Part shown: in pieces, positions 10,955 to 60,812 of the stretch
Layout of the letters: every line of letters begins with the position of its first letter
Position numbering within the stretch: position 1 is the first letter of the stretch
DNA from: Escherichia phage HildyBeyeler
Sequence record: MZ501074
Reading direction: 5' to 3' (one strand)
DNA: 64,000 nucleotides
Made by a program: the position numbers and the translations under genes
The notes under the pieces: generated by a model
Databases searched by the model: none
What the model saw: the letters and a program-made list of their open reading frames with translations, nothing else
Told to the model about the DNA's origin: nothing

Positions 10955-11470
10955 TTGATAACACAAGATGAATTAAAAAGGATTCTGGAGTATAATCCAG
11001 ATGAAGGAACATTTACTTGGTTAAATAACCAGGAAGTACACAATAAAGTAAGGGGACTACCTGCTGGCTGTTTAAAACCCCACTCAGTAGATCCTAACCG
11101 AAAAGACTTAGTAATACAAATCAAGGGTAAGAAGTATCCCGCACAAAATATTGCTTTCCTGTACATGACAGGAAACTTACCTAAAGTTATGGTTGACCAT
11201 ATAGATGGAGATTCACTAAACTATAAGTGGGCTAATCTAAGAGAAGCAGACTGGCAGTTAAATAGTCAAAATAGAAAAACTAGTAAAAACAATATATTGG
11301 GTACTAAGAATATTCGGAAGAAAGGGTCTGGATTTCAAGTTAGAAAATCCATTAACGGAAAAGAATATGTGAAAACTCTCCCAACTCTAGAAGAGGCGAT
11401 AGAGTATCGAGATTCTTTAATCCTCTCTATAACCAAAGATCCAACACTACTTAGAAACACAGATAAATAG
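10955..11470 (+). CDS. HNH homing endonuclease (free-standing, between nrdA and nrdB)
   Basis: VDHIDGD...N..WANLR HNH motif; TTG start with AAGGAG RBS. Confidence 0.75.
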   Translation: MITQDELKRILEYNPDEGTFTWLNNQEVHNKVRGLPAGCLKPHSVDPNRKDLVIQIKGKKYPAQNIAFLYMTGNLPKVMVDHIDGDSLNYKWANLREADWQLNSQNRKTSKNNILGTKNIRKKGSGFQVRKSINGKEYVKTLPTLEEAIEYRDSLILSITKDPTLLRNTDK

Positions 11471-11478
11471 GAGAACTA

Positions 11479-12624
11479 ATGACAACTTTACTTAACTTAA
11501 ACTGGGATCATACCAATAAAGATCTATTTCTCGGTGATTCTCTTGGTATTGCAGATTATGTACGAGTAGCCCATCCAGAGCTGGAAAGGCTGGCGTTATT
11601 AGCTCGCTCTCAATTCTGGACTGAAACTGAAATCAGTCTGGAAGCAGATAAGAAACAATGGCCTAATCTCCCACGAGAAATTCAGGAAATTACCCTCCTG
11701 AATTTAGCATGGCAGACTCAAACTGATTCCTTTATCAGTCGAGCGCCTGAAGCAGCTATTATGCCACTTGTAAGTCGTCCAGAATTGGAAGGTATGCTAA
11801 AGCAGTGGAGCTACTTCGAAGACCTGCATAGTCGCGCCTATAGCAATATTATTCGTAATGTGCTGACTGATCCAGCAGAATTTATTGATTCTGTAACCAA
11901 AAACCAGGAAGCATTCGCACGCATCGCTGATTCTGTTGAACTGTTCGATGAACTGTATCAGTTAGGTCAGTATTTCCTCGCAGTACGCGATCATCGTGGT
12001 GACAATACATATCCAGAAACTGAGTTCCCTGAAGTTAAACGTGAAACTCAGGCTAAACTATTAGACGCTTACTTTGCGATCTATGGTCTGGAAGCAATGC
12101 AGTTTTACGCATCCTTTGCATGTACTTTTGCTCTAGCAGAGAACGATATTCTGCAAGGTATTGCTAAGAACCTGCAATTAATCGCTAAAGATGAGGCTCT
12201 GCACACCCAGATGTCTAAAGCAATCATCCAGATTATGTTCCAGCAGTTTGACAAAGATCTGGTAGATGAAGCAGTGGCTAAAGCACCAGCACAGCTCCTG
12301 AAAACTCTGAAAACTGAAATTGAATGGGGTCATTTCATTTTCAAAGGTCGTAGTCTGATTGGCTTGAATGCAGAACTTCTAGAAGAATATCTGTACTTTG
12401 TGGGGCGTAATGCATTTATGCACATCGGTGTAGAATGGCCTAGTCATTTACCAGTAATCACTAAGAACCCCATTCCGTGGATCATGAACTGGCTGGATAC
12501 CACTTCTTTACAGCCTGCTCCACAAGAAATCCAGATTGGTGCAGCCTACCGTGTAGGTCAGGTAACTGAGACCTCTACTGATACTCTGAAAGATCTGGGT
12601 AATGAATTTGGAGATTTCTTATGA
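11479..12624 (+). CDS. nrdB: ribonucleotide reductase small subunit
   Basis: 381 aa immediately after nrdA/HNH; ferritin-like E/H-rich helices. Confidence 0.8.
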   Translation: MTTLLNLNWDHTNKDLFLGDSLGIADYVRVAHPELERLALLARSQFWTETEISLEADKKQWPNLPREIQEITLLNLAWQTQTDSFISRAPEAAIMPLVSRPELEGMLKQWSYFEDLHSRAYSNIIRNVLTDPAEFIDSVTKNQEAFARIADSVELFDELYQLGQYFLAVRDHRGDNTYPETEFPEVKRETQAKLLDAYFAIYGLEAMQFYASFACTFALAENDILQGIAKNLQLIAKDEALHTQMSKAIIQIMFQQFDKDLVDEAVAKAPAQLLKTLKTEIEWGHFIFKGRSLIGLNAELLEEYLYFVGRNAFMHIGVEWPSHLPVITKNPIPWIMNWLDTTSLQPAPQEIQIGAAYRVGQVTETSTDTLKDLGNEFGDFL

Positions 12625-13151
12625 TTACAGCAATGTATGCAGTTGGGCCGAATGGAGAGTTCGGCCTCCGAGGTAAACTTCCCTGGGGTTCCTTCAAAGA
12701 AGAGTTAGATGCTTTCTATTCTCAACTGGACGTGTTGAATCCAGATAACATCATCATTGGTGCGGGTACTTATTTAGCACTTCCAGAAGTTGTTAGGCAA
12801 CGTATGATTGGAGAATCCGACCTCTTTATTCGTGCTGACCGACCTCTGGCTGATAGCATCAAAGAAACTTACACTGCCATATCAAGGATAGGTGATACAC
12901 TACCTACTTTCCTAAAAGATCAGCAAACAGTAGTTCTAGGCGGAGCTAATCTTCTCCTAGAAATGTATCAGCATGGGCATATAGAAAGTGCTTTTGTATC
13001 TACAATCTTTAGTGAGCAGAAGCTAGAGGCAGATACATACCTAGATAGTATGATACTGGATTATAACTATGAATCCACTCGATTAGTCTATGCAGTTGGC
13101 GCAAACAGTGATAACAGCCTGCGATTTGTACAGGAATTGGTTACTTATTAA
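12621..13151 (+). CDS. frd: dihydrofolate reductase-like protein
   Basis: 176 aa; GLRGKLPW near N-terminus; positioned between nrdB and thyA. Confidence 0.55.
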   Translation: MITAMYAVGPNGEFGLRGKLPWGSFKEELDAFYSQLDVLNPDNIIIGAGTYLALPEVVRQRMIGESDLFIRADRPLADSIKETYTAISRIGDTLPTFLKDQQTVVLGGANLLLEMYQHGHIESAFVSTIFSEQKLEADTYLDSMILDYNYESTRLVYAVGANSDNSLRFVQELVTY

Positions 13152-13990
13152 TGCAACAATACTTAAAAATTTTGACAGATGTAATTTTACTAGGTGAACC
13201 CCGTAATGACCGTACAGGAACAGGCACAGTTTCAATTTTTGATTCCTATGCTAAGTTCGATCTACGTGAGGGATTCCCTGCCGTAACCACTAAACGTCTA
13301 GCCTGGAAATCAGTAGTAGGAGAACTTTTATGGTTCTTGTCTGGTTCCACAAATCTTCATGATCTACGTGTATTCACATTTGGGCGTGACGAAGGACAGT
13401 GGACCATCTGGACTCCAAATTATGAAGACCAAGCTATAAGTATGGGGTATGATAAGGGTAATCTAGGACCGGTATATGGTAAACAGTGGCGTAACTTTGG
13501 TGGGCGAGATCAGATTCTAGAACTTATTGAAGGACTCAAGAATAATCCTCATGGCCGCAGACATCTAGTTTCTGCATGGAACGTAGCTGAACTTGATAAA
13601 ATGGCATTACCGCCCTGCCACTACGGCTTCCAGTGCTATGTAAGTAACGATGGATACCTAGATCTTAAATGGACACAACGTTCTGTAGATTGTTTCCTCG
13701 GTTTACCCTTCAATATTGCTAGTTATGCTTTATTAACGCATATATTAGCAAAACTGACAGGATTAAAACCTCGTTATCTCATCTTTAGTGGTGGAGATAC
13801 TCATATCTATAATGACCACATGGAACAGGTAGAAGAACAGGTAAAACGCAAGCCACGCCCTCTACCAACTCTAGTAATGCCAGAGTTTGTAGATCTTTAC
13901 GATTTATTAGAAAATAATACGGCAGCTTGGTCCTTCCAGCTTGAAGGATATGATCCGCATCCGGCTCTTAAAGCTAAAATGTCTTCCTAA
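13151..13990 (+). CDS. thyA: thymidylate synthase
   Basis: Active-site LPPCHYGFQCYV motif. Confidence 0.9.
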   Translation: MQQYLKILTDVILLGEPRNDRTGTGTVSIFDSYAKFDLREGFPAVTTKRLAWKSVVGELLWFLSGSTNLHDLRVFTFGRDEGQWTIWTPNYEDQAISMGYDKGNLGPVYGKQWRNFGGRDQILELIEGLKNNPHGRRHLVSAWNVAELDKMALPPCHYGFQCYVSNDGYLDLKWTQRSVDCFLGLPFNIASYALLTHILAKLTGLKPRYLIFSGGDTHIYNDHMEQVEEQVKRKPRPLPTLVMPEFVDLYDLLENNTAAWSFQLEGYDPHPALKAKMSS

Positions 13991-13994
13991 CTCA

Positions 13995-14014
13995 AATAGC
14001 CCTTCGGGGCTATT
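13995..14014 (+). terminator. hairpin terminator
   Basis: AATAGCCCTTCGGGGCTATT palindrome after thyA. Confidence 0.5.
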
Positions 14015-14029
14015 ATATTTAAATTTCAT

Positions 14030-14058
14030 TTGCTTATTTAGTGAAATTTAAATATAAT
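14030..14058 (+). promoter_or_regulatory. sigma70-type promoter
   Basis: TTGCTT-17-TATAAT. Confidence 0.55.
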
Positions 14059-14083
14059 ATATTTTATAAATTGGAGGTATATA

Positions 14084-14365
14084 ATGATTTCAGCCAAAGA
14101 AGCTCAAGAACTTGCAGGATTAACAGAAGTACCCGCATTCCTAAAGTTTATAGAAGAAAAGATTGTAGAAGCTGCTAAGTCTGGAAATACAGAAGTAATT
14201 ATTCGAGATAATCCTTACGCTAGGTGGCTATATAATCCTAGAGAAATGCCAGGAGCAGCTAAATCGGTACTAAAAACCTTATCGGATAAGGGGTATCACC
14301 TCTCACAATACTACCGAGAAGCCGCCTTTGTAGACATGGGTCTTAAAATTAGTTGGGAGGTATAA
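14084..14365 (+). CDS. hypothetical protein
   Basis: ORF track; GGAGG RBS. Confidence 0.5.
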   Translation: MISAKEAQELAGLTEVPAFLKFIEEKIVEAAKSGNTEVIIRDNPYARWLYNPREMPGAAKSVLKTLSDKGYHLSQYYREAAFVDMGLKISWEV

Positions 14366-14841: not shown

Positions 14842-14861
14842 TAAGTAAATTAAAAATTCAA

Positions 14862-14890
14862 TTGCTTAAAGCCCTCTAATTTAGTATAAT
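14862..14890 (+). promoter_or_regulatory. sigma70-type promoter
   Basis: TTGCTT-17-TATAAT. Confidence 0.6.
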
Positions 14891-14917
14891 ATTCGTATTG
14901 AAAGTGAGGAGGGCTTT

Positions 14918-15202
14918 ATGAGAATTTATAACTCAAATTCATTAGGATTTAAACCATTGAGAAAACGTGCACAATCACCTCGTCAAATAAGAAAGGCTAA
15001 TATTGGTGAACCAGAAACACGTCTTCCACCTCCTCCAGAACAACGTTTAGTTTATCTGGACGAAGAATTAGCGGAACGCGAAAGAAAAGCTCAAGAAGAG
15101 ATTAAGCATAAGAAAATGTGTACTGCTCCAGCCTACTCCAAAGGGGCTTATCAATATATCTATACAGCCGAGGAGGCTAAAGATGCGGGGCGTAAAAAAT
15201 GA
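14918..15202 (+). CDS. hypothetical protein
   Basis: ORF track; GAGGAGGG RBS. Confidence 0.45.
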   Translation: MRIYNSNSLGFKPLRKRAQSPRQIRKANIGEPETRLPPPPEQRLVYLDEELAERERKAQEEIKHKKMCTAPAYSKGAYQYIYTAEEAKDAGRKK

Positions 15203-15648
15203 AGATTACTGAATTTAAAGGTACTTATAGTTTTTTATCTAACTTTTATTTATCACCAATTACTTTCGAATATCTAAATGAGATATGGCATGCTGATACT
15301 GTAGAACATGCTTTTCAGGCTATGAAATCCGACCAAAAAGATGATGTAGCTCATGTGCTGCGCTCCCTAAATGCAGGAGTTGCCAAACGTAGAGGACGTA
15401 AATTAACTCTGCGCTCTGACTGGGATAAGGTAAAAGATGATGTAATGTTAGAGCTTTTACGGTTAAAGTTTGCAATCCCTGATTTGAGGGACAAACTGTT
15501 AGCAACAAAAAATGCAACTTTGATCGAAGGAAATACCTGGGGAGATACATACTGGGGTGTTTGCCGAGGCATCGGGGATAATACTTTAGGAGTTCTTTTG
15601 ATGCAGGTAAGGTCTGAAATTAAAAGAAGTTTACAGTTAATAAATTAA
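15199..15648 (+). CDS. NADAR-domain (YbiA-like) protein
   Basis: FLSNFY, EHAFQAMK and WGD..WG motifs typical of NADAR/DUF1768. Confidence 0.55.
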   Translation: MKITEFKGTYSFLSNFYLSPITFEYLNEIWHADTVEHAFQAMKSDQKDDVAHVLRSLNAGVAKRRGRKLTLRSDWDKVKDDVMLELLRLKFAIPDLRDKLLATKNATLIEGNTWGDTYWGVCRGIGDNTLGVLLMQVRSEIKRSLQLIN

Positions 15649-15656
15649 AAATTCAT

Positions 15657-16517: not shown

Positions 16518-16545
16518 TAGTTTTCTACACAATAAAGGATAAGTT

Positions 16546-18576: not shown

Positions 18577-18605
18577 TTGCTAATTTATTAAGTTATCTGT
18601 ATAAT
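18577..18605 (+). promoter_or_regulatory. sigma70-type promoter
   Basis: TTGCTA-17-TATAAT. Confidence 0.6.
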
Positions 18606-18635: not shown

Positions 18636-19457
18636 ATGGGTAAATTACAAAAACAAATACTACCATATATAGATTATATCCGAGAAATTATAGAGTATAA
18701 TCCCTATACTGGTAAATTATTCTATAAGCCTAATAAATATAAGAATAAAACTTGGCATACTTTATATGCTGGGAGAGAAATATGTAGTAAGAACTCTGAT
18801 GGGTACATCAGAGTTAGTTTGCTCTTAGATAATAAACCCACAATTATTTATGGACACCGAATAGCGTGGCTCCTTCACTATGGGGAGGAACCACCTGCTA
18901 TGATTGATCATATAAATACTATACCGTGGGATAATAGAATTATTAACCTAAGAGAGACAAATTTTAAGTTAAACAGACTTAATACTAACAAAACGGTAGG
19001 TGTAGAGCTGCTGCCAGAAGGATTTGTGTACAGCATTACATTAGGTGAAAAGTTTTTTGTATCCCCCGGCTTCCCCACTTTCGAACAAGCTAAAGTGGAA
19101 AGAGAAAAACTAGTAAATGGTTTATGTAATGCAGAAATTGGGAAGCAGACCAATATTCTAATAGACGATGTTAGAGATTTACCTGAAATGTCCATTATTT
19201 GTCGTACAGTTATAGGTGCGCTGGAACTATCAGATGTGTTTAGTTTCACAGGATCCTATTTATTTATGGACTCAGATTTAGGAGATTCAGAGGTACAAGG
19301 AAAAGATTTATTAGATCATATACTATTATTAGGTCAAAGACCCCTAAAAGTGATTCTAGTAACATCTAATCCTGTTGACGCAGAGTACATGAGAGGTACT
19401 CTTACGTCTTATGGATACCGAGAAAATCCCAATAGATTAGAATATGATCTATTTTAA
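18636..19457 (+). CDS. HNH homing endonuclease
   Basis: GHRIAWLLHYGEEPPAMIDHIN...NLRETN HNH signature. Confidence 0.7.
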   Translation: MGKLQKQILPYIDYIREIIEYNPYTGKLFYKPNKYKNKTWHTLYAGREICSKNSDGYIRVSLLLDNKPTIIYGHRIAWLLHYGEEPPAMIDHINTIPWDNRIINLRETNFKLNRLNTNKTVGVELLPEGFVYSITLGEKFFVSPGFPTFEQAKVEREKLVNGLCNAEIGKQTNILIDDVRDLPEMSIICRTVIGALELSDVFSFTGSYLFMDSDLGDSEVQGKDLLDHILLLGQRPLKVILVTSNPVDAEYMRGTLTSYGYRENPNRLEYDLF

Positions 19458-21543: not shown

Positions 21544-22491
21544 ATGTTTAATACTAAAAATATGAAAGAACTGACTTCTGAGCAAAAAGTAATTCGCACT
21601 ATTAAACGTTGGGGTATTGGTTCTGTAGTTGGTTTAGCAGGTTTAATCCTAGCTTTTAATTCATATACTATTGTTTCTGATGGTACAGTTAAAACCCAAA
21701 CATTTCTGGGTAAAGTAGATCCTAACCCAGTATTACCTGGTTTCCATCTTGTAAACCCATTTGCATCTTTCGATACTTTTAGTACAAAAGATATTGCTGT
21801 AAAATTAGATAAACTTCAGGTTCCTAGCCAGGATAAGTTTAAATCCACTGTTGACCTGACTGTTATGTTGCAGTTTGATGGTTCTAAGGCACCGATCAAC
21901 CGTATTAATGCAGGTACTCAGGATCAGGCGTTAGACAAATATGTTACTGAAAAATTACTGTCTACCATCCGTGAGTTTGGTAAGTCTGTACCTAAAGCAC
22001 AAGATTTGTTTGATGCTAAAATTCAAGCACAATTACAAACTGCAATTCAACAGGAAGTTGAAGAGTATGCACGCCCTTATGGTTACACAGTTAAGCAAGT
22101 GTTCCTTCAGGATATTACATTGCCACCGGTAATTATGGAACAGGTACAGAATACCAAAGTTCGTGAAGAACAAGTTAATGCTGCGAAAGCTGAATTGGCT
22201 CGTGTTGAACAAGAAGCACAGCAGAAGGTTAAACAAGCAGAAGCAGATCGTGAAGCTCGTAACAACCAAGCTATTGCAAACGAACGTGATGCAGATGCTA
22301 AACTGTATGCAGCTAAGAAAGAAGCCGAAGCTAACGCCGCTCTGCAACGTACTATTACTCCTGAGATGATTCGCTGGAAACAACTAGAAGTTGAAATGAC
22401 TCGTGCTCAGAAGTATCAAGGTGGTGTGCCTCAGACTGTAGTAGGTACTGGTTACGATGGTCAAATGATCATGGATATGCGTAACAAGTAA
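21544..22491 (+). CDS. SPFH/Band-7 (prohibitin-like) membrane protein
   Basis: N-terminal TM helix, Band-7-like core, long A/E/Q-rich coiled coil. Confidence 0.6.
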   Translation: MFNTKNMKELTSEQKVIRTIKRWGIGSVVGLAGLILAFNSYTIVSDGTVKTQTFLGKVDPNPVLPGFHLVNPFASFDTFSTKDIAVKLDKLQVPSQDKFKSTVDLTVMLQFDGSKAPINRINAGTQDQALDKYVTEKLLSTIREFGKSVPKAQDLFDAKIQAQLQTAIQQEVEEYARPYGYTVKQVFLQDITLPPVIMEQVQNTKVREEQVNAAKAELARVEQEAQQKVKQAEADREARNNQAIANERDADAKLYAAKKEAEANAALQRTITPEMIRWKQLEVEMTRAQKYQGGVPQTVVGTGYDGQMIMDMRNK

Positions 22492-22778: not shown

Positions 22779-23297
22779 ATGACTGTTGATGAACTAACAG
22801 AACATCTCTTATCTAGAGGGTTTGATACAGATAAGTATCATTGCTGGTTAAGTCCGGAAGGATGGCTAACAGTCCCGTTGTATGACTTCTCTGGGATGTT
22901 GAGAGGCTATCAGACTTATAATCCTTCTGCTCCAAAAGGTCATGGTAAGTGCCCCTTTGAAGCTAAATATTTTACTTATTCAACTACACAGTGTGTATGG
23001 GGATTAGAAACTCTCAATGGAGATGAAAAAGTAGTATTGATTGCTGAATCTGTATTTAAGGCAGTTGCGTTACATAACGCTGGTTATCCAGCCCTGGCAA
23101 TGTTGGGTTCTTCCCCCGGAAAAGCATTGTTAAAGCAATTGAAATTATTACCTTTTAAATTGGTAGCTGTCGGAGATAATGATCCTGCGGGTGAAAAATT
23201 TGCTAGAAAATTAAACGGCTTTGTTTCTCCTGTAGATGTAGATGAGATGTCTACCGAAAACTTGAAAAATTTTCTTGCTATGAAGCTAAATTTCTAA
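22779..23297 (+). CDS. Toprim-domain protein
   Basis: VVLIAES (Glu) and VGDNDPAGE (DxD) Toprim motifs. Confidence 0.45.
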   Translation: MTVDELTEHLLSRGFDTDKYHCWLSPEGWLTVPLYDFSGMLRGYQTYNPSAPKGHGKCPFEAKYFTYSTTQCVWGLETLNGDEKVVLIAESVFKAVALHNAGYPALAMLGSSPGKALLKQLKLLPFKLVAVGDNDPAGEKFARKLNGFVSPVDVDEMSTENLKNFLAMKLNF

Positions 23298-23412: not shown

Positions 23413-23490
23413 GGTTCTCAAGCTCATATGGTATGAGCACCCAGCTCATAACTGGAAGGTACGTAGGTTCGAATCCTCGGGGAGCCACCA
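23413..23490 (+). tRNA. tRNA with CAT anticodon (Met or Ile2)
   Basis: Acceptor with two GU pairs, D-arm GCTC/GAGC, loop CTCATAA, CCA. Confidence 0.5.
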
Positions 23491-25018: not shown

Positions 25019-25106
25019 GGGCGTTTATTCCGTAAGTGGTAGCGGAGGGGATTGTAAATCCCTGGTCATTGCGACTCGAGTGGTTCGACTCCATTAACGC
25101 CCACCA
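25019..25106 (+). tRNA. tRNA-Tyr (anticodon GTA), class II
   Basis: GGGCGTT/AACGCCC acceptor, loop TTGTAAA, long variable arm, CCA. Confidence 0.65.
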
Positions 25107-25280: not shown

Positions 25281-25355
25281 GCACCTTTAGCTGAGATGGA
25301 TTAGCGCTTGCCTGAAGAGCTTGAGAGGTTGGATCGTTACCAACGGGGTGCACCA
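25281..25355 (+). tRNA. tRNA, anticodon uncertain (GAA or CTG)
   Basis: GCACCTT/GGGGTGC acceptor, unusual T-loop ATCGTTA, CCA. Confidence 0.45.
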
Positions 25356-27425: not shown

Positions 27426-27454
27426 TTGCTATTTAGCTTAATTCTCTGTATAAT
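27426..27454 (+). promoter_or_regulatory. sigma70-type promoter
   Basis: TTGCTA-17-TATAAT. Confidence 0.6.
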
Positions 27455-27486: not shown

Positions 27487-28062
27487 ATGGAAGGATTTAA
27501 ACCAATACCCGAGTATCCAGAATACTTAGTATCTGAGAAGGGAGAAATATACTCCACTATCAGTAATAAATATTTAAAACCTACCATAAACGGGAGCGGC
27601 TATTACCACTTTGCAGTACGTGAAGATACTAATGAGTATAGATGGCTTCTGCTGCACAGAGTTATATGCAGGGTTTATGGTAATCTCCCCTCTTTAGATA
27701 GTGAAATGGAAGTAGATCATAATGATTGTAATAGGCTTAATATACTCCCTAGTAATTTAGTTGCCAGAGAGAAGAAAGATCATTACGATAAAACTACACT
27801 GGAGAGAGGAAAAACTATAGGGGGCACTAGATGTATAGTCTGTAATAAGAGGATACACTCTGGTCGAGAATACTGCATAAATTGCAGTCCAGTTAAACAG
27901 ACTAAATCCCCAGAGATTACCGCAGAACAGATAGAATATTGGGTATCAAAGTATTCCTGGACTAGAGCTGCAAAAGAGTTAAATTTATCTGATAATGGTC
28001 TACGAAAACGGTATACTAAATTAACAGGTAAATCCCCAAAAGAAATTAAAAAATCAGGGTAA
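27487..28062 (+). CDS. HNH endonuclease inside tRNA cluster
   Basis: EVDHNDCNRLN...N HNH motif plus C-terminal Cys cluster; 3-prime end overlaps tRNA-Pro. Confidence 0.6.
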   Translation: MEGFKPIPEYPEYLVSEKGEIYSTISNKYLKPTINGSGYYHFAVREDTNEYRWLLLHRVICRVYGNLPSLDSEMEVDHNDCNRLNILPSNLVAREKKDHYDKTTLERGKTIGGTRCIVCNKRIHSGREYCINCSPVKQTKSPEITAEQIEYWVSKYSWTRAAKELNLSDNGLRKRYTKLTGKSPKEIKKSG

Positions 28063-28132
28063 GGGCGATAAGGTACGCCACCTCGTTTGGGGCGAGGAAA
28101 TCTTTAGAGTTCGAATCTCTATACCCTGACCA
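28055..28132 (+). tRNA. tRNA-Pro (anticodon TGG)
   Basis: D-stem GGCG/CGCC, stem CCTCG/CGAGG, loop TTTGGGG, CCA. Confidence 0.65.
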
Positions 28133-28138: not shown

Positions 28139-28214
28139 TGCGGGTGGGAGGCATAGAGTTCTTCTTAGTCTCATAAGCTAAGTAAGTCCAGGGCAGTACT
28201 GGAACCCGCTACCA
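28139..28214 (+). tRNA. tRNA with CAT anticodon, atypical (1-72 mismatch, non-standard T-loop)
   Basis: Loop CTCATAA; T-arm TCCAG-GGCAGTA-CTGGA; CCA encoded. Confidence 0.4.
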
Positions 28215-28872: not shown

Positions 28873-28951
28873 GGGGGATGGGTCTGCTGGGAGTGGACAC
28901 CTCGCTTGCACCGAGGACATCAGAACGATTCGAATTCGTTATCCTCCACCA
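28873..28951 (+). tRNA. tRNA-Ala (anticodon TGC)
   Basis: GGGGGAT/ATCCTCC acceptor, stem CCTCG/CGAGG, loop CTTGCAC, CCA. Confidence 0.65.
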
Positions 28952-43859: not shown

Positions 43860-43888
43860 TTGCTTCAAGCCTTAAAATTCTGTATAAT
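43860..43888 (+). promoter_or_regulatory. sigma70-type promoter
   Basis: TTGCTT-17-TATAAT. Confidence 0.6.
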
Positions 43889-43920
43889 AAGTTCATAAAT
43901 TAATGAGAGAGGAAATTCTA

Positions 43921-44199
43921 ATGGAAAACATGACTAAAGACTTCGACGCCTCTAACCTTACCAAGACTGAAATGGCCAATGTATTAGCAATTCTCCTCGA
44001 CATGCAAGGATTTGAGGGGCAACTGATGAAAATGTCTATTCCGGCGATGAAGAAGATGTATGATTCTCTTAACAAGAACGCCATGGCCTTTAACTTAGCA
44101 AAACAAGAGGCACGCTTTGCTAAGGAGCACCAAGCAGTGGCAGAACGCCGAGCAGCTAGCTTTGAGCGTGAAGTTAAGCAATTAAAGAAAAAATGCTAA
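43921..44199 (+). CDS. hypothetical protein
   Basis: ATG 43921 after GAGAGAGG (track start 43903 lies in promoter-proximal sequence). Confidence 0.45.
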   Translation: MENMTKDFDASNLTKTEMANVLAILLDMQGFEGQLMKMSIPAMKKMYDSLNKNAMAFNLAKQEARFAKEHQAVAERRAASFEREVKQLKKKC

Positions 44200-44729
44200 C
44201 ACAAGAAAGATTAAAAGAGCTATTTGAATACCGCCCGGAAACGGGCGAGTTTATTAGATTAGTAAGTATAGGTAATCAAAAAGCTGGTAGTACTGCTGGC
44301 TGTCTAAGAAAGACTGGGTATATAGAAATAAGAGTAGATAAAGTAGGCTACAAAGCACATCGACTAGCCTTCCTCTATATGGAAGGTTATATTCCCGAAG
44401 TAATAGACCACGTAAATCGTATACGGAGTGATAATAGGTGGGCTAACCTTAGAGAATCTAATAACCAAGAAAATTCTAGAAATAGAACAGCAAGGAGCAA
44501 ATCATGGTATTTGGGAATCTTTTGGCATAAACAAAAGCAAAAATGGGAAGTAAGGGTTGTAGATTCGTACAAAAAGTTAGTGCATGGTGGGTATTTTGAT
44601 TTTCTAGATCTAGAATTAGCGGTTCAAAGAGCTAATGAACTACGTTTAGAACTACATGGGCCTAACGCTGTTATAGAAACTTTTGATCATACAAAACCCT
44701 TACCTACTTTAGAGGAATTAAATAAATGA
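44193..44729 (+). CDS. HNH homing endonuclease
   Basis: HRLAFLYMEGYIPEVIDHVN...NRWANLRESN HNH signature. Confidence 0.65.
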   Translation: MLTQERLKELFEYRPETGEFIRLVSIGNQKAGSTAGCLRKTGYIEIRVDKVGYKAHRLAFLYMEGYIPEVIDHVNRIRSDNRWANLRESNNQENSRNRTARSKSWYLGIFWHKQKQKWEVRVVDSYKKLVHGGYFDFLDLELAVQRANELRLELHGPNAVIETFDHTKPLPTLEELNK

Positions 44730-56451: not shown

Positions 56452-56540
56452 TAGTTATATCTTGCCCCTTCTAGCGAGGGGGCAATAATATAACTGTTTA
56501 GCGATAGTTATTTTCTTCCCCTAAATCAGGAGTTTTAAAA

Positions 56541-56738: not shown

Positions 56739-56835
56739 ATATCGCAAGTTATAACGCCTATTATTTAAGGCGTTATATCTGGCAATATTGCCAATAACAA
56801 ACGTTTTTTAATCCCTTTAATGGAGTTTTATTATT

Positions 56836-58506
56836 ATGGTTATTTCCGCAGAAAAACAAACCCAGATCCTCAACCTTGCCGCTGATTTCAATTTCTATGG
56901 TAAACGTCTGCGCGCTACTAAGCTGGAAGTTTGTGACGATATTTCAAAAGCTGTTTATGATACGCCGAAACATTCCACCGCTATTTGTGACTGGTTGGAA
57001 GCAAATAAACCAGCGAAACCGAAAGCGGCGAAAGTAGCAAAAGCCATAAAAAACGATGACCGCCCTGAAGCCGCTGGAGTTATTTCTAGCACGGTGGAGC
57101 AATGGGAAGTAAAACAAGGCAAACGCTTTATCATTACATCGATTCAGAATAATACTTTCCCGCATAAAAACTTTTTGGCCGCGCTTGAACAATATGCCCA
57201 ATTTATTGGAGCTGATTTGCTGGTTAGCAAGTATATTTATAATAAAAACGGTTTTCAAAATGGGGAAGGGGCAGACGGAATCAAATATGATTCTGCATTT
57301 GACAAATATATTTGCAGCAAAAACGTGTTTTTAAATAACCGCCGCTTTGCTTTCATGGCTGAAATTAATGTTTTGCCAACCGCAGATTATCCGCTATCTG
57401 GATTTGCTGAAACTGCAACCGCGCTTAATCTGGAAGGTCTGGCAATTGGTCACGCTAAAATCACCGCCGAAAGCGTGCCAGCTTTAAAAGGTGAAGTAGT
57501 GCGCCGCATGTATTCAACCGGAACGGCAACGCTAAAAAATTACATTCAGCAGAAGGCAGGGCAAAAAGCGGAAGCGTTACATAATTTTGGTGCGCTGATT
57601 GTCGAGTTCGACGAGGACGGAGAATTTTTTGTTCGCCAGCTTGAAACGATGGACGAAAGCGGCGTTTTTTACGATTTGAATATTTGCGCCACTCCCACCG
57701 GATGCTATGAAACAACGGGGCACGTTTTAGGTTTACAGTATGGTGACATCCACGCTGAAAAATTAGATGAAGAGTGCGCCGCTGCATCATGGGGGCATGG
57801 TGATACCTATGGGCTTGTGGATATTCTCAAACCAAAATATCAATTCGTCCATGACGTGCATGATTTTACATCACGCAACCATCACAACCGCGCCTCCGGT
57901 GTATTCCTAGCAAAACAGTACGCCGCCGGACGTGATAAGGTTCTGGATGATCTTATCGATACGGGGCGCGTACTGGAAGCAATGGAGCGTGATTTCTCTC
58001 AAACAATCATTGTTGAATCGAATCACGATCTGGCGTTATCCCGCTGGCTTGATGATCGTAATGCTAACATTAAAGACGACCCAGCAAACGCGGAACTATA
58101 TCACCGCCTGAATGCCGCGATTTACGGAGCTATCGCAGAAAAAGACGAAACCTTCAACGTGCTTGATTATGCGTTGCGCAAGGTTGCAGGTTGCGAGTTT
58201 AACGCCATTTTCCTAACGACTGACCAATCTTTCAAGATTGCAGGCATTGAATGCGGCGTACACGGTCACAATGGCATTAACGGGAGTCGTGGCAATCCTA
58301 AACAGTTTAAGAAATTGGGCAAATTAAACACGGGGCATACTCATACGGCAAGCATTTACGGCGGTGTATATACCGCTGGCGTTGCTGGTAGTCTGGACAT
58401 GGGTTACAACGTTGGCGCGTCAAGCTGGACGCAAACGCATATTATTACCTATGTAAACGGTCAGCGCACTTTGATTGACTTTAAGAATGGTAAATTTTTC
58501 GCATAA
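56836..58506 (+). CDS. A1: A1-like pre-early protein, metallophosphoesterase-type nuclease
   Basis: 556 aa; GDIH, ESNHD and GVHGHNG phosphoesterase motifs; size and context recalled to match T5 A1. Confidence 0.5.
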   Translation: MVISAEKQTQILNLAADFNFYGKRLRATKLEVCDDISKAVYDTPKHSTAICDWLEANKPAKPKAAKVAKAIKNDDRPEAAGVISSTVEQWEVKQGKRFIITSIQNNTFPHKNFLAALEQYAQFIGADLLVSKYIYNKNGFQNGEGADGIKYDSAFDKYICSKNVFLNNRRFAFMAEINVLPTADYPLSGFAETATALNLEGLAIGHAKITAESVPALKGEVVRRMYSTGTATLKNYIQQKAGQKAEALHNFGALIVEFDEDGEFFVRQLETMDESGVFYDLNICATPTGCYETTGHVLGLQYGDIHAEKLDEECAAASWGHGDTYGLVDILKPKYQFVHDVHDFTSRNHHNRASGVFLAKQYAAGRDKVLDDLIDTGRVLEAMERDFSQTIIVESNHDLALSRWLDDRNANIKDDPANAELYHRLNAAIYGAIAEKDETFNVLDYALRKVAGCEFNAIFLTTDQSFKIAGIECGVHGHNGINGSRGNPKQFKKLGKLNTGHTHTASIYGGVYTAGVAGSLDMGYNVGASSWTQTHIITYVNGQRTLIDFKNGKFFA

Positions 58507-58561
58507 TTAAATTATTCCCTAGCGGCTTGAAATATAGCCGCTATTACAGGAGCCACAAAAA

Positions 58562-58852
58562 ATGAAAATTAATTTACCTAGCAATGAATTTTCCCCTAAA
58601 ACTTCTTTACTAGATGATATTTCTTATCAAGATGCTTATATAAATGAGGAAGTATATCGCGCTTGTTCTGACCTCCTAGAATATCCCGATTATCCAATCT
58701 ATAAAGGTGATTTCATTATACCCGTTTATAATGGTGTGCTAGTAGTAGGCAAAGCTGGGGTTATTGTTATAGATAGTTGTACATTGTCACAAGAAACGTT
58801 TAAAGTGCCACTAGAGTTAACTAATTATTCTCCTAGTATTACAGTACAATAA
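58562..58852 (+). CDS. hypothetical protein
   Basis: ORF track. Confidence 0.4.
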   Translation: MKINLPSNEFSPKTSLLDDISYQDAYINEEVYRACSDLLEYPDYPIYKGDFIIPVYNGVLVVGKAGVIVIDSCTLSQETFKVPLELTNYSPSITVQ

Positions 58853-58889
58853 ATTAAGTCCCTTATTAAACTAATTGGAGTTTATAAAT

Positions 58890-59282
58890 ATGAAAAAGCA
58901 AAATATCCCATTCGATCGCGCTCAGTCTTCTATCGTTCTGGTTTATTCTAATGGTGCGCGGTATCACGTCGAGGCCGGTCACGTTGTCGATGACTTAATC
59001 GAGTTTAATGACGTTTTGCAGGTTACTACTTTCGCCTATACCACGGGCAAGCTATCCAGCCGCATCAAGGCGAAAGGCGTTCACATTGACACGATGAAAC
59101 AAGAAACCATCATTATTGACGCGGTAAAATCCGGCCTAGCCTTTGCAGTTGTCGCGCCTTGCCCCGCTTGCCTTGATGATCAGCTAATGAGCGCAAAAGT
59201 ATTTACTTGTGCGGGGATTCGTTCCGATGTATCAGGTGAAGATATTAGTTTTATCGCTGATGCGCTGGCTTATGGTCTTTGA
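58890..59282 (+). CDS. A2-like pre-early protein (about 15 kDa)
   Basis: ATG 58890 after GGAG; position between A1-like and dmp-like genes. Confidence 0.35.
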   Translation: MKKQNIPFDRAQSSIVLVYSNGARYHVEAGHVVDDLIEFNDVLQVTTFAYTTGKLSSRIKAKGVHIDTMKQETIIIDAVKSGLAFAVVAPCPACLDDQLMSAKVFTCAGIRSDVSGEDISFIADALAYGL

Positions 59283-59320
59283 TAGTTGATTTATTATTGC
59301 CCGCTGATAAATAGCGGGCA

Positions 59321-60097
59321 ATGCTGGATAAACTAAATCCCTTTAATGGAGAACGTAACAAAATGAATCAAGTTAAAACGAATATTACCCGTAATTTCCC
59401 GCATGTTTCCCGCGTCATGATCTGGGATCTGGATGGCACTATCGTTAACTCATTCCATCGCGTAGCGCCTTGCTTTGATAGTGATGGTAATCTAGATCTG
59501 AATAAGTATAAAAATGAAGCGTGCAAACATGATTTAATAATGCAAGATACTTTATTGCCGCTTGTTACATATATGCGCCAATGCATGAATGACGCAAATA
59601 CTTTAAACATTATTTGTACCGCTCGACTGATGAGCAAGTCGGACTATTATTATTTGCGCAAACAAGGCTTGCGAGGGCGTGGGAATAGCAATATCCGTGT
59701 ATTTTCCCGCGATACACTGCATAAGTATTTTGAAGCTGATAAAGTTAGCGAAATATACCACAGTAAGGACGCAGTTTATAAAAGCCACTACTTTGAGTTA
59801 TTTAAGCAGTTATATCCGAACGCTGATTTCACGATGATAGACGATCATAAAGGTGTGCTAGCAGCGGCGGCATCATACGGATTTAAAACGTTGGACGCGC
59901 AAGCCGTTAACGATATTCTATCAATCGGTGTTACATTGATAGGCGAAACCTTTATCGACGAATCTCTTGAGGATGATAATGATTATCAGTTCCTAGTCGA
60001 TCGCTTGCAATTATGTTGGGAAAGTATGACCGAGGAAGAACGCGCAGAATATAGTTGCAGCCCGCAACAATATATCGAGAAACTAAAAGTTGCATAG
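59321..60097 (+). CDS. dmp: HAD-superfamily 5-prime deoxyribonucleotidase-like protein
   Basis: MIWDLDGTIVNS HAD motif I; 258 aa; pre-early context. Confidence 0.55.
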   Translation: MLDKLNPFNGERNKMNQVKTNITRNFPHVSRVMIWDLDGTIVNSFHRVAPCFDSDGNLDLNKYKNEACKHDLIMQDTLLPLVTYMRQCMNDANTLNIICTARLMSKSDYYYLRKQGLRGRGNSNIRVFSRDTLHKYFEADKVSEIYHSKDAVYKSHYFELFKQLYPNADFTMIDDHKGVLAAAASYGFKTLDAQAVNDILSIGVTLIGETFIDESLEDDNDYQFLVDRLQLCWESMTEEERAEYSCSPQQYIEKLKVA

Positions 60098-60103
60098 TAA
60101 TTA

Positions 60104-60140
60104 AAGTTGATATTGTTTCACCTTGCAATTAAAATGGTTG
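60104..60140. terminator. bidirectional terminator, perfect 14-bp hairpin
   Basis: GTTTCACCTTGCAA-TTAAAATGG-TTGCAAGGTGAAAC between convergent genes. Confidence 0.7.
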
Positions 60141-60272
60141 CAAGGTGAAACAGTTAGCATGATAATAGTAACGGGGGTGGCGGTTAGCAGACTAAGTATT
60201 TTCGCCCAGCCCACTGCACCCACCCACGCGTACGTAATCCAAAGAATTTGGCAAAAGTCATTTTAGCGCTAA

Positions 60273-60812
60273 TTACCTGTTTAATTGGGCAACGTCTGGT
60301 ATACTTCCTTTGAACATCTCCTGTATTGCAAAGTCACCATGAAATGTCCTTCTTAGTAAATTTGCATAATTTACGGCATCTTCTAATTCGCTATAGGGAA
60401 AGTACTTAGTAGTGCCCCTTATCAGCCCCTGTTTATCGTGTAATCTTACCATCCACTTCTGAAGTTCTTTATGCCATGTAACATTTAGATAGCCTGATGA
60501 TGCTCTTGAGATTCTGCCATTATGATTATTCTCTGTAATTGAAGCCTCTCTTAAATTTGACCATCTATTATTTAGTTTATTCCTATCTATGTGGTCTACA
60601 CATTCCTCTGGCCATCTATTCTCCATAATAACAAAAGCTACTTGATGTGCATAAGCTTTAAACCCTCGATACTTGAGCTGCCTATATCCCCTATTTAAAG
60701 TACCTGCTTCTTTACCCTTACGATTGCCGCTTTTCCAGGTAAAAACTCCAGTTTCGGGGTCATAAGCAAATACTTCTTGTATTTCCTGTATATTTAGATT
60801 ATTCTTCACCAT
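60273..60812 (-). CDS. HNH homing endonuclease
   Basis: HQVAFVIMENRWPEECVDHIDRN...NRWSNLREAS HNH signature. Confidence 0.65.
   Translation of the reverse strand: MVKNNLNIQEIQEVFAYDPETGVFTWKSGNRKGKEAGTLNRGYRQLKYRGFKAYAHQVAFVIMENRWPEECVDHIDRNKLNNRWSNLREASITENNHNGRISRASSGYLNVTWHKELQKWMVRLHDKQGLIRGTTKYFPYSELEDAVNYANLLRRTFHGDFAIQEMFKGSIPDVAQLNR

What the first reader, a model, noticed from the sequence alone, without database searches (positions are those of the whole stretch)
10955..60812. Five free-standing HNH homing endonuclease genes, one between nrdA and nrdB and one inside the tRNA cluster
HNH motifs are read at 10955-11470, 18636-19457, 27487-28062 (its 3-prime end overlaps tRNA-Pro), 44193-44729 and 60273-60812 (minus strand). 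This is a heavy load of selfish endonucleases at positions typical for intronless homing.
Basis: partly seen in the sequence, partly recalled or inferred. Interest (0 to 1): 0.45.

Follow-up and report, generated by a model that had tools for sequence, protein, structure and literature searches.

The report
Five HNH homing endonucleases, T5-like phage
The window comes from a T5-like phage and does carry five intact HNH "selfish" nuclease genes at the stated positions, which is a well-documented feature of this phage family; the one twist is that one of them is fused in frame to a neighbouring phage gene instead of standing alone.

Summary
Observation confirmed. All five ORFs exist at the given coordinates. 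Each matches Pfam HNH_3 above its curated cut-off and keeps the catalytic Asp-His...Asn...Asn/His of I-HmuI. They are the only HNH_3 ORFs among 122 scanned.

The window is a T5-like phage (Demerecviridae). Its closest relative is Salmonella phage Tennessee, and one protein is identical to a protein of Escherichia phage HildyBeyeler.

Each gene occurs in only 3-17% of related genomes that share the flanks. Tennessee has a ~98% identical backbone, lacks all five, and carries four other HNH genes at other sites. Flanks next to H1 and H4 show short divergent, co-conversion-like tracts. This is the classic homing pattern.

The genes are already annotated in public records: H1 is T5p093/F-TflVIII (99% aa) and H3 is hegB/F-TflIII (96% aa, same 8-nt overlap with tRNA-Pro).

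Two corrections:
- The 18636-19457 ORF is not free-standing. It is an in-frame HNH-cREC fusion that replaces the stand-alone cREC gene, it is not an intein, and both halves are under purifying selection.
- A sixth, decayed endonuclease gene (T5orf172 type, 6937-7137, minus strand) lies beside nrdD.

Verdict: real, correctly read in the main, ordinary for T5-like phages.

The parts
10955..11470 (+). H1: HNH_3/AP2-type homing endonuclease gene (171 aa, TTG start) between nrdA and nrdB. It is the ortholog of T5 T5p093, annotated in DT571/2 as 'nicking homing endonuclease F-TflVIII'.
   Evidence: Pfam HNH_3 31.9 bits. 99.4% aa identity to T5p093 and 98.8% to DT571/2 F-TflVIII. Absent from SelmaRatti, Tennessee and most relatives.
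10900..10928 (+). T5-type early promoter-like site (TTGCTA-N17-TATAAT). It drives nrdB in HNH-less phages and is followed by H1 and then nrdB here.
   Evidence: The sequence is identical in occupied and empty alleles. The insertion lies between the -10 hexamer and the nrdB ATG (alignment A2; coordinates).
11471..11655 (+). Divergent, co-conversion-like tract covering the start of nrdB, next to H1.
   Evidence: 75-85% identity to Tennessee here, against 99-100% in the surrounding backbone. The haplotype is shared with the H1-carrying phage DT571/2.
18636..19457 (+). H2: single 273-aa ORF. An HNH_3 + AP2-like module (aa 1 to ~165; nt 18636 to ~19130) is fused in frame to a cREC_REC domain (aa ~173-257). 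It replaces the 105-aa stand-alone cREC gene of most T5-like phages.
   Evidence: Pfam HNH_3 42.4 bits and cREC_REC 48.6 bits. Alignment with the empty allele (Elw) and with the separate-HNH allele (bobsandoy). The cREC half is 51% identical to the Elw cREC. pN/pS is about 0.18 in both halves against a 77%-identical homolog. It is the only cREC copy in the window. The AF2 model of aa 1-165 has pLDDT >90, and the top PDB match is I-HmuI.
18577..18605 (+). Promoter-like site of the cREC gene, now driving the HNH-cREC fusion.
   Evidence: Promoter, RBS and ATG are the same as in the stand-alone cREC allele. Divergence starts right after the ATG (coordinates).
27487..28062 (+). H3: NUMOD4 + HNH_3 + Cys4 + HTH-like endonuclease gene (191 aa) in the tRNA cluster. 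It is the ortholog of hegB / F-TflIII of Salmonella phage 5.
   Evidence: Pfam NUMOD4 29.9 bits and HNH_3 28.1 bits. 96.3% aa identity to hegB and 57% to T5p059. Locus alignment; annotation of AJ604531.
28055..28132 (+). tRNA-Pro(UGG) allele linked to H3. Its first 8 nt are the last 8 nt of the H3 ORF, stop codon included.
   Evidence: ARAGORN and sequence. The same overlap is annotated in phage 5. The allele is very different from the tRNA-Pro of Tennessee and of GSP044/T5 at the same site.
27426..27454 (+). Promoter-like site, homolog of the annotated promoter P13a, upstream of H3.
   Evidence: Annotated as promoter P13a in AJ604531. Shared with HNH-less phages, where it precedes a 52-aa ORF. 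Coordinates.
44193..44729 (+). H4: HNH_3/AP2-type homing endonuclease gene (178 aa) embedded in an early operon. Its start overlaps the upstream stop by 7 nt, and its end shares ATGA with the downstream start.
   Evidence: Pfam HNH_3 54.4 bits. Empty sites in DT57C and Es2. Tennessee has a 165-bp ORF there instead. 61% aa identity to T5p050.
43893..44192 (+). Divergent, co-conversion-like tract upstream of H4, in the homolog of T5 'protein 2C'. It includes a 27-bp in-frame insertion.
   Evidence: 67-94% identity to Tennessee, against 98-100% further out. Alignment A4.
60273..60812 (-). H5: HNH_3/AP2-type homing endonuclease gene (179 aa) with its own GGAGG ribosome-binding site. It lies just downstream of the T5p158 homolog and about 60 bp from the position of T5's right terminal-repeat boundary.
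   Evidence: Pfam HNH_3 45.2 bits. 98.3% aa identity to the SHSML-45 'homing endonuclease'. Empty in T5 and Tennessee; SP01 has a different HNH at the site.
60226..60272 (.). Left copy of an imperfect direct repeat of about 47 bp flanking H5. The right copy is at about 60815-60862.
   Evidence: A single copy in Tennessee (L018 4330-4376) matches both sides of the insertion. Sequences.
6937..7137 (-). Remnant of a T5orf172-type (GIY-YIG superfamily) endonuclease gene beside nrdD. An internal 662-bp deletion has left about 19 N-terminal codons in another frame plus the C-terminal 61 aa.
   Evidence: Pfam MUG113 27.5 bits and T5orf172 23.2 bits, C-terminal half of the profile only. Comparison with the intact 301-aa gene of phage RUS_R2.

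Best explanation
The window is from a T5-like phage (Demerecviridae). It carries five intact genes for I-HmuI-like His-Me-finger (HNH_3) endonucleases.

Domain make-up:
- H1, H2, H4 and H5 combine the nuclease with an AP2-type DNA-binding module.
- H3 combines it with NUMOD4, a Cys4 motif and an HTH-like tail.

Proposed mechanism (inferred by analogy with I-HmuI, T4 Seg/Mob enzymes and T5 F-Tfl enzymes):
1. During mixed infection with a relative that lacks the gene, the enzyme nicks or cuts that relative's DNA close to the empty site.
2. Recombinational repair from the HNH-bearing genome copies in the nuclease gene together with some flanking sequence.
3. The donor's own flank is diverged and presumably not cut.

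Expression is parasitic on resident signals. This part is shown by sequence.
- H1 sits between the nrdB promoter and the nrdB start codon.
- H3 uses the P13a promoter, RBS and ATG that otherwise serve a 52-aa ORF. It runs 8 nt into tRNA-Pro, so 5' processing of that tRNA would remove its stop codon. That effect is inferred; such down-regulation has been proposed for the T5 tRNA-region HEGs (PMC2330249).
- H4 is translationally coupled inside an operon.
- H5 has its own RBS behind the T5p158 homolog.
- H2 has gone one step further. The nuclease module is fused after the start codon of the cREC gene, giving a single HNH-AP2-cREC protein that is the phage's only cREC copy. The whole coding sequence behaves as a replacement cassette for the stand-alone cREC allele.
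For: Family assignment:
- Pfam HNH_3 is above its cut-off for all five, plus NUMOD4 in H3 and cREC_REC in H2.
- A family profile hits I-HmuI 1u3e (E=1.2e-10) and AP2/ERF domains (E=6.8e-11) in the PDB.
- The catalytic D-H...N...N/H is kept in all five.
- The top Foldseek hit of the AF2 model of H2 is I-HmuI.

Mobility signature:
- The share of related records covering at least 80% of gene plus flanks is 73/439, 27/440, 12/445, 50/334 and 11/283.
- Base-level empty sites are seen.
- Tennessee (97-99% identical over 8.5-44 kb) lacks all five and has four other HNH genes. The HNH cassettes account for most of the large (~0.5 kb) differences in that span.
- Divergent tracts lie only next to the insertions.
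- Other HNH alleles occupy the same sites in Spc35, bobsandoy and SP01.

Identity with known genes: H1 is 99.4% identical to T5p093, H3 96.3% to hegB/F-TflIII, and H5 98.3% to the SHSML-45 homing endonuclease.

Literature:
- F-Tfl HNH endonucleases are named as the main source of differences among T5-like genomes (PMC10644984).
- T5 is predicted to have nine, and nrdA-nrdB is a hotspot as for T4 mobE (PMC3326045).

H2 fusion:
- Alignment.
- It is the only full-length architecture match among 1.84e9 representative proteins.
- pS is 0.73 against pN 0.13, with no indels, compared with a 77%-identical homolog in the same locus context.
Against: No enzymatic activity, target site or biased inheritance was measured. 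Homing is inferred only from comparative patterns.

The megablast counts detect only alleles of roughly 80% or higher nucleotide identity, so they understate site occupancy by other HNH alleles.

Co-conversion-like tracts are clear for H1 and H4 but weak for H2 (88-96% over ~400 bp downstream) and H3 (97-98% upstream, 100% downstream).

Cassette boundaries at conserved promoter/RBS sequences would also fit ordinary homologous exchange without any nuclease.

Some T5 HNH proteins may have roles beyond homing. HegG is toxic and damages DNA when expressed in E. coli, and the contribution of the nine T5 HNH enzymes to infection is called unclear.
Confidence: 0.88

Rival explanations
1. H2 (18636-19457) is an intein-containing cREC protein. 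The HNH module would be the homing-endonuclease part of an intein that splices out of the protein. This is how the identical protein is named in GenBank for phages HildyBeyeler and SelmaRatti ('intein-containing hypothetical protein').
For: The HNH module is inserted in frame in a conserved host gene. Source names for identical or near-identical proteins say 'intein-containing'. HNH_3-type nucleases do occur in some inteins (PMC5714182).
Against: No Hint or intein-splicing family matches, even at E<=10. The inserted ~170 aa are filled by the HNH and AP2-like folds, which leaves no room for a Hint domain. The insert starts with Gly (M|GKLQ...) and ends ...GKQT|N. There is therefore no Cys/Ser/Thr at position 1, no terminal His-Asn, and no Cys/Ser/Thr at +1. 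The 'N-extein' would be Met1 alone.
Confidence: 0.03
2. The HNH genes are kept mainly because they serve the phage, and homing is secondary. Possible services are excluding or out-competing co-infecting relatives, damaging host DNA, introducing T5-type nicks, or promoting amplification of nearby loci such as the tRNA cluster.
For: T5 HegG expression causes DNA damage phenotypes in E. coli. T4 SegB secures inheritance of the tRNA region (PMC2330249) and is reported to amplify anti-defence loci (PMC13096335, abstract seen). Both halves of H2 are under purifying selection. H5 lies ~60 bp from the terminal-repeat boundary position, and in T5 a major nick is annotated at the inner end of the left terminal repeat.
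Against: Each gene is missing from 83-97% of related genomes and from the nearest relative, so none is needed for the T5 life cycle. Different alleles replace one another at the same sites. Nicks and terminal repeats are features of all T5-like phages, whereas these genes are sporadic.
Confidence: 0.2
3. The five ORFs are inactive relics: domain remnants that no longer cut DNA and are merely drifting.
For: Homing endonuclease genes commonly decay after fixation. The window does contain one decayed example, the T5orf172 remnant. One member of the H2 cluster is truncated to 185 aa in another phage.
Against: All five are full length compared with their homologs: 171 aa against 171 in DT571/2 (174 in T5p093), 191/191, 179/179, 273/273. 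All keep the catalytic residues. H2 shows strong purifying selection. Absence from a 98%-identical genome points to recent movement.
Confidence: 0.07
4. H5 is a packaging-associated HNH that works with terminase at the genome ends, not a homing element.
For: It lies within a few kb of the terminase and receptor-binding-protein genes and ~60 bp from the T5 right terminal-repeat boundary position. HNH proteins next to cos sites and terminase genes are known (PMC3592412, abstract seen).
Against: It belongs to the HNH_3/AP2 family like H1 and H4 (40% identical to H4), not the zinc-ribbon HNH type next to terminase. It is present in only 11 of 283 related records, and T5 itself has an empty site. 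A ~47-bp duplication flanks it as an insertion.
Confidence: 0.03

Closest known systems
T5 F-Tfl / heg HNH endonucleases (F-TflI, II, IV of T5, Akulenko et al. 2004, PMID 15456135; hegB/F-TflIII of Salmonella phage 5, AJ604531; T5p093, annotated F-TflVIII)
   Same: Same phage family, same loci and near-identical proteins. H1 is 99.4% identical to T5p093. H3 is 96.3% identical to hegB, with the same promoter and the same 8-nt overlap with tRNA-Pro. In T5 two HNH ORFs likewise run into tRNA genes: T5p059 into tRNA-Gln and T5p062 into tRNA-Ser.
   Different: The set of occupied sites differs from T5. Only the nrdA/nrdB site is shared. H2, H4 and H5 sit at sites that are empty in T5 st0.
I-HmuI (PDB 1u3e), the intron-encoded nicking HNH homing endonuclease of Bacillus phage SPO1
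   Same: Same His-Me-finger core with equivalent D74/H75/N87/N96 positions. It is the top structural match of the H2 model. H3 also has an N-terminal NUMOD4 module.
   Different: I-HmuI is encoded inside a group I intron. No intron is detected here. Four of the five proteins use an AP2-type DNA-binding domain instead of the I-HmuI C-terminal modules.
T4-type free-standing endonucleases MobE (between nrdA and nrdB) and SegB (inside the tRNA cluster)
   Same: Same genomic niches and the same logic: intron-less homing with co-conversion of flanks. nrdA-nrdB is a recognised hotspot (PMC3326045). SegB targets tRNA genes and drags neighbouring tRNA genes along (PMC2330249). H3 likewise comes with its own tRNA-Pro allele.
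   Different: Unrelated phage lineage. SegB is GIY-YIG, not HNH. MobE belongs to a different HNH group (group 1 in PMC5714182, against group 2 for HNH_3).
HNH-AP2 homing endonuclease genes ('IPA-HNH' of Vibrio phage ICP1; Barth et al. 2023, PMC10448857)
   Same: N-terminal HNH plus C-terminal AP2 architecture, located at boundaries of genetic exchange between closely related phages.
   Different: Different phage group. That paper lists T5-like phages as rich in T5orf172 genes, not in IPA-HNH genes. The window has five HNH_3 genes and only a T5orf172 remnant.
Stand-alone cREC (cyclic-phosphate-processing receiver) proteins of phages (Iyer et al. 2021, PMC7824862), e.g. T5p082 and Elw_00107
   Same: The C-terminal 100 aa of H2 are a full-length cREC_REC domain at the same locus, under the same promoter, in front of the same cell-wall hydrolase gene.
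   Different: Only 51% identical to the stand-alone version in otherwise 94-100% identical surroundings. It is preceded by a 165-aa nuclease module in the same polypeptide. No other HNH-cREC architecture was seen among the best matches in 1.84e9 representative proteins.

Membership tests
HNH_3 / I-HmuI-like His-Me-finger endonucleases | Sequence match to the family profile above the curated threshold | tested here: met
   PF13392 scores 28.1-54.4 bits against a cut-off of 24.8 for all five. The family profile hits 1u3e at E=1.2e-10.
HNH_3 / I-HmuI-like His-Me-finger endonucleases | Catalytic residues: Asp-His (general base His75 in I-HmuI), structural Asn87, metal-ligand Asn96 (the roles are from my knowledge of Shen et al. 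2004) | tested here: met
   The pattern D-H-x11-N-x8-(N/H) is present in all five. D and H are invariant, and the last position is His in H3 and Asn in the others.
HNH_3 / I-HmuI-like His-Me-finger endonucleases | Beta-beta-alpha-metal fold | tested here: met
   Tested for H2 only. The AF2 model has pLDDT >90 over aa 11-110, and the top Foldseek PDB hit is 1u3e (E=8e-4, prob 1.0), followed by I-PpoI. Not modelled for the other four.
HNH_3 / I-HmuI-like His-Me-finger endonucleases | Attached sequence-specific DNA-binding module (AP2, NUMOD, HTH) | tested here: met
   The C-terminal part of the family profile hits the AP2/ERF structures 7wq5, 7et4 and 1gcc. H3 has NUMOD4.
HNH_3 / I-HmuI-like His-Me-finger endonucleases | Site-specific nicking or cleavage of DNA | not testable with these tools
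   Needs purified protein and substrate DNA.
Free-standing homing endonuclease gene (intron-less homing) | ORF stands alone between genes, not inside an intron, an intein or another gene | tested here: inconclusive
   Met for H1, H3, H4 and H5: they are intergenic or operon-embedded, and Rfam finds no intron. Not met for H2, which is fused in frame to cREC.
Free-standing homing endonuclease gene (intron-less homing) | Sporadic presence among close relatives, with precise empty sites | tested here: met
   3-17% of related records carry each allele. All five are absent from the 98%-identical Tennessee genome.
Free-standing homing endonuclease gene (intron-less homing) | Co-conversion of flanking sequence | tested here: met
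   Identity to Tennessee falls to 75-85% (H1, ~200 bp) and 67-94% (H4, ~300 bp) only next to the insertions. The effect is weaker for H2 and H3.
Free-standing homing endonuclease gene (intron-less homing) | Cleavage of the HEG-less allele and above-Mendelian inheritance in crosses | not testable with these tools
   Requires phage crosses.
Intein (considered for H2 because GenBank names the identical protein 'intein-containing') | Hint-domain splicing blocks | tested here: not met
   No Hint or intein family matches at E<=10. The insert is fully accounted for by the HNH and AP2-like folds.
Intein (considered for H2 because GenBank names the identical protein 'intein-containing') | Cys/Ser/Thr at intein position 1, terminal His-Asn, Cys/Ser/Thr at +1, and a real N-extein | tested here: not met
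   The insert begins with G2 and ends ...K-Q-T, followed by N. Only Met1 precedes it.
Group I/II intron-encoded endonuclease | ORF embedded in a recognisable self-splicing intron | tested here: not met
   An Rfam gathering-threshold scan of the whole window returns only tRNAs.
T5orf172 (GIY-YIG superfamily) homing endonuclease, for the 6937-7137 ORF | Complete T5orf172 domain in an intact ORF | tested here: not met
   Only profile positions 43-100 of 101 are matched. A 662-bp internal deletion is seen relative to the intact 301-aa homolog. It is a remnant.

The most novel reading that the evidence does not exclude
The HNH-AP2-cREC protein (18636-19457) may be more than a selfish nuclease that happens to read through into its neighbour. 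It may be a stable bifunctional enzyme. In this reading a sequence-specific DNA-nicking module and a predicted cyclic-phosphate/ADP-ribose-processing receiver domain work together, for example in a counter-defence or nucleic-acid-repair role. At the least, the nuclease has made itself non-deletable by becoming the sole carrier of the phage's cREC function. The evidence does not exclude this. The architecture is unique among the best matches in 1.84e9 representative proteins. It has been kept without indels across a divergence at which synonymous sites are saturated. Both halves are under purifying selection.
Probability: 0.12. Interest if true: 0.5.

Novelty: already known. Interest (0 to 1): 0.17.

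Why it matters
It matters little for discovery. HNH homing endonuclease genes are a textbook source of mosaicism in T5-like phages, and these particular genes are already deposited and mostly annotated.

The practical value is threefold:
1. It gives a clean natural pair for homing experiments. This phage and Tennessee are ~98% identical, and all of their HNH genes found here (five in this window, four in Tennessee) lie at different sites.
2. It corrects an annotation. The 'intein-containing' cREC protein is an in-frame HNH-cREC fusion, not an intein.
3. It documents how such elements plug into resident promoters, start codons and tRNA genes.

If the fusion proved to be functionally integrated, it would be an example of a selfish nuclease being captured by, or capturing, a host-interaction gene.

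Tried and rejected
- **phmmer of H4 alone against PDB sequences:** found nothing relevant. A 69-sequence family profile was needed to reach I-HmuI and AP2.
- **NCBIfam:** no model matches any of the five.
- **The search for homologous proteins with H2:** returned only two clusters, because E-values are scaled to 5.8e9 sequences. The exhaustive HMMER search was needed to see HNH-only and cREC-only relatives.
- **AF2 model:** the cREC half of H2 is unreliable (pLDDT 35-45 for aa 171-220) because only four sequences cover it. I draw no conclusion from it about contacts between the domains.
- **Looking for other endonuclease families:** this took several Pfam scans and yielded only the T5orf172 remnant. 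No GIY-YIG or LAGLIDADG family appears in any returned Pfam table.
- **Rejected readings:** intein, intron-encoded, terminase-associated HNH and pseudogene (see rivals).
- **dS:** synonymous sites are saturated, so I rely on pN/pS and not on the dN/dS values.
- **Rfam tRNA model:** it does not recognise the H3-linked tRNA-Pro even at E<=1, although ARAGORN does and the cloverleaf can be drawn by eye. I did not resolve whether this tRNA is functional.

Full report
**What the window is.** Megablast of three large pieces of the window against the phage collection returns hundreds of T5-like phages (Demerecviridae, Markadamsvirinae). The best match is Salmonella phage Tennessee (OZ075147.1) at about 97.7% identity. 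Gene order corresponds to T5 read in reverse: nrdD, phoH, nrdA, nrdB, DHFR, thyA, RNase H, then the tRNA cluster, early genes, the pre-early terminal-repeat genes A1/A2/dmp, and finally the end of the late region. The protein of ORF 18636-19457 is identical to QXV80087.1 of Escherichia phage HildyBeyeler. The window is therefore that phage or a near-identical one.

**Checking the observation.** The five ORFs exist exactly as listed and translate cleanly.
- All five match Pfam HNH_3 above its gathering score of 24.8 bits. The scores are 31.9, 42.4, 28.1, 54.4 and 45.2 bits.
- An HMM built from the five recovers only these five in the six-frame translation.
- A Pfam scan of 122 non-overlapping ORFs reports HNH_3 in five members.
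- A profile built from the five plus 64 homologs hits the solved structure of I-HmuI (1u3e, E=1.2e-10) over the nuclease core. It hits plant AP2/ERF DNA-binding domains (7wq5, E=6.8e-11) over the C-terminal part.
- In that alignment the invariant D-H and the conserved Asn residues correspond to D74, H75, N87 and N96 of I-HmuI. All five window proteins have D-H-x11-N-x8-(N/H), with His at the last position only in H3.
- An AlphaFold model of H2 is confident over the nuclease and AP2-like part, and I-HmuI is its best PDB match.
- H1 lies between nrdA and nrdB. H3 lies inside the tRNA cluster, and its last 8 nt are the first 8 nt of tRNA-Pro.

**Are they mobile?** I queried each gene with 400-bp flanks. 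The table gives the number of related records that cover at least 80% of the query, out of all records with any match.

| Gene | Records covering >=80% / records with a match |
|---|---|
| H1 | 73 / 439 |
| H2 | 27 / 440 |
| H3 | 12 / 445 |
| H4 | 50 / 334 |
| H5 | 11 / 283 |

- Most other records match only the two flanks, joined together.
- Base-level alignments show clean empty sites.
- At three sites other phages carry a different HNH gene: Spc35 at nrdA/nrdB (42% aa identity to H1), bobsandoy upstream of cREC, and SP01 behind the T5p158 homolog.

The most telling comparison is with Tennessee.
- Over window 8.5-44 kb the two genomes are 97-99% identical.
- The window-specific blocks there of about 0.5 kb or more are H1, the HNH-cREC ORF, H3 with its tRNA-Pro, H4, and one NADAR-domain ORF. 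Two shorter unmatched stretches (175 and 266 bp) remain.
- The Tennessee-specific blocks of about 0.5 kb are three other HNH genes. Four shorter Tennessee-specific stretches include the resident sequences that the window's cassettes replace, such as the stand-alone cREC gene and the small ORF with its tRNA-Pro.
- H5 is also absent from Tennessee, which has a 40%-identical HNH at a different late-region site.
- Identity to Tennessee is 99-100% around the insertions. It falls to 75-85% in the first ~200 bp of nrdB next to H1, and to 67-94% in the ~300 bp upstream of H4. That is the pattern expected from co-conversion with a donor flank.
- Rfam finds no intron in the window.

**How each gene is plugged in.**
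- **H1** lies between the -10 hexamer of the nrdB promoter and the nrdB start codon. It brings its own ribosome-binding site and supplies one for nrdB.
- **H3** starts at the ATG that serves a 52-aa ORF in HNH-less phages, behind the promoter annotated as P13a in phage 5. The cassette includes a tRNA-Pro(UGG) allele quite unlike those of Tennessee or of GSP044/T5, while the sequence on both sides is nearly identical. By analogy with T4 SegB, which cuts in tRNA genes (PMC2330249), the resident tRNA-Pro region is a plausible target. This is inference. Processing at the 5' end of tRNA-Pro would remove the H3 stop codon. That paper mentions such down-regulation as proposed for the T5 tRNA-region endonucleases.
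- **H4** overlaps the upstream stop codon by 7 nt and shares ATGA with the downstream start.
- **H5**, on the minus strand, has a GGAGG site. It is flanked by an imperfect ~47-bp duplication of a sequence that is single-copy in Tennessee. It lies about 60 bp from the position of T5's right terminal-repeat boundary.

**The exception: H2.**
- The 273-aa ORF also contains a complete cREC_REC domain (PF20274, 48.6 bits).
- In most T5-like phages the locus holds a 105-aa stand-alone cREC gene (T5p082; Elw_00107, annotated 'cyclic-phosphate processing receiver domain-containing protein'). In bobsandoy a separate HNH gene sits upstream of its promoter.
- In the window the promoter, ribosome-binding site and ATG are those of cREC. 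The nuclease module follows directly, and the reading frame continues into a cREC domain only 51% identical to the stand-alone one. Sequence similarity to the stand-alone allele returns at the 3' end of the coding sequence.
- There is no in-frame start codon at the junction and no second cREC copy in the window.
- In an exhaustive HMMER search of 1.84e9 representative proteins, the only full-length match is this protein's own cluster. All other listed hits contain HNH alone or cREC alone.
- A 77%-identical, equally long homolog from a metagenome contig sits in the same gene context. Against it, pS is 0.73 and pN is 0.13, with similar values in both halves and no indels. The fusion is therefore old and both halves are constrained.
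- GenBank names the identical protein 'intein-containing hypothetical protein'. This is not supported. No Hint domain matches even at E<=10. The insert begins with Gly and ends Thr|Asn. Only Met1 precedes it.
- cREC domains have been proposed, on genomic-context grounds, to process cyclic phosphate or ADP-ribose-derived linkages in NAD+-centred and RNA-repair conflict systems (PMC7824862).

**A sixth, decayed element.** The ORF at 6937-7137 (minus strand) overlaps the start of nrdD. It matches only the C-terminal half of the T5orf172/MUG113 domain. It is what remains of a 301-aa endonuclease gene that is intact in phage RUS_R2, after a 662-bp internal deletion. T5orf172 genes are reported as abundant homing elements in T5-like phages (PMC10448857).

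**Comparison with what is known.**
- H1 is 99.4% identical to T5p093, which is annotated in DT571/2 as nicking homing endonuclease F-TflVIII.
- H3 is 96.3% identical to hegB/F-TflIII of Salmonella phage 5, where the same overlap with tRNA-Pro is annotated.
- H5 is 98.3% identical to the 'homing endonuclease' of SHSML-45.
- H4 is 61% identical to T5p050.
- T5 st0 has five annotated HNH genes in the equivalent span, two of them running into tRNA genes.
- The literature states that T5 has nine HNH enzymes (PMC3326045; bioRxiv 10.64898/2026.04.02.716235).
- It also states that F-Tfl endonuclease genes are the main contributors to differences among T5-like genomes (PMC10644984), and that nrdA-nrdB is a homing hotspot comparable to that of T4 mobE.
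- The Tennessee phage paper likewise lists HNH genes among its unique genes relative to HildyBeyeler (PMC12639943).

**Verdict.** The load is at the high end of normal for T5-like phages, not exceptional. The corrections are the fused, non-intein nature of H2 and the additional T5orf172 remnant. Nuclease activity, target sites and biased inheritance are inferred, not shown.

Noticed in passing
window 6937-7137 (-), remnant extends to about 7166: Deleted T5orf172-type endonuclease gene beside nrdD. An internal 662-bp deletion is seen relative to the intact 301-aa gene of Salmonella phage RUS_R2. T5 st0 has no match to this stretch.
   Followed up: yes
window 28055-28132; L017 31544-31619; L008 864-941: Three very different tRNA-Pro(UGG) alleles occupy the same position in otherwise ~100% identical surroundings. 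The H3-linked allele is called by ARAGORN but is not found by the Rfam tRNA model even at E<=1.
   Followed up: partly
window 28139-28214 (+): tRNA-like sequence with anticodon loop CTCATAA (CAU), an acceptor stem and a non-canonical T-loop (GGCAGTA). It sits where other T5-like phages have tRNA-fMet, a small ORF and tRNA-Lys. Neither ARAGORN nor Rfam calls it. The stretch from 28126 onward also aligns to Tennessee.
   Followed up: no
window 15199-15648 (+): NADAR-domain ORF (79 bits) absent from both T5 st0 and Tennessee, where other sequence sits in its place. It is the one large window-specific block relative to Tennessee in this span that is not an endonuclease gene.
   Followed up: partly
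window 2789-3295 (-), 3455-4279 (-), 15199-15648 (+), 19131-19454 (+): Several genes with NAD+/ADP-ribose or RNA-repair associations lie within 20 kb: HAD_SAK_2 'Swiss army knife' HAD, SIR2, NADAR and cREC. They may be worth examining together as counter-defence functions.
   Followed up: no
window 60110-60272 and T5 AY692264 around 103490: H5 is inserted about 60 bp from the position of T5's right terminal-repeat boundary, next to a strong hairpin (60110-60150). In T5 a 'major single-chain interruption' is annotated at the inner end of the left repeat. No link to the HNH gene was established.
   Followed up: partly
window 10900-10928, 18577-18605, 27426-27454, 43860-43888: Very similar T5 early promoter sequences (TTGCT-N17/18-TATAAT with similar surroundings) lie just upstream of H1, H2 and H3 and of the operon holding H4. 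Cassette boundaries coincide with them, so they could serve as short homology patches for exchange.
   Followed up: no
window 21544-22491 (+) and 22779-23297 (+): A Band_7/SPFH-domain ORF and a Toprim-domain ORF sit inside the tRNA cluster.
   Followed up: no
window 23413-23487, 25281-25352 (+); 25019-25106, 28873-28951 (+): The two tRNA finders disagree. Rfam reports two tRNAs that ARAGORN does not. ARAGORN reports tRNA-Tyr, tRNA-Pro and tRNA-Ala that Rfam does not report at its gathering score.
   Followed up: no
L001 2460-5762 (RUS_R2) and L005 (SelmaRatti): In some relatives nrdA is about 1100 aa and is annotated as intein-containing. In the window nrdA is 812 aa with no such insertion. 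This is another mobile-element polymorphism at the same locus.
   Followed up: no
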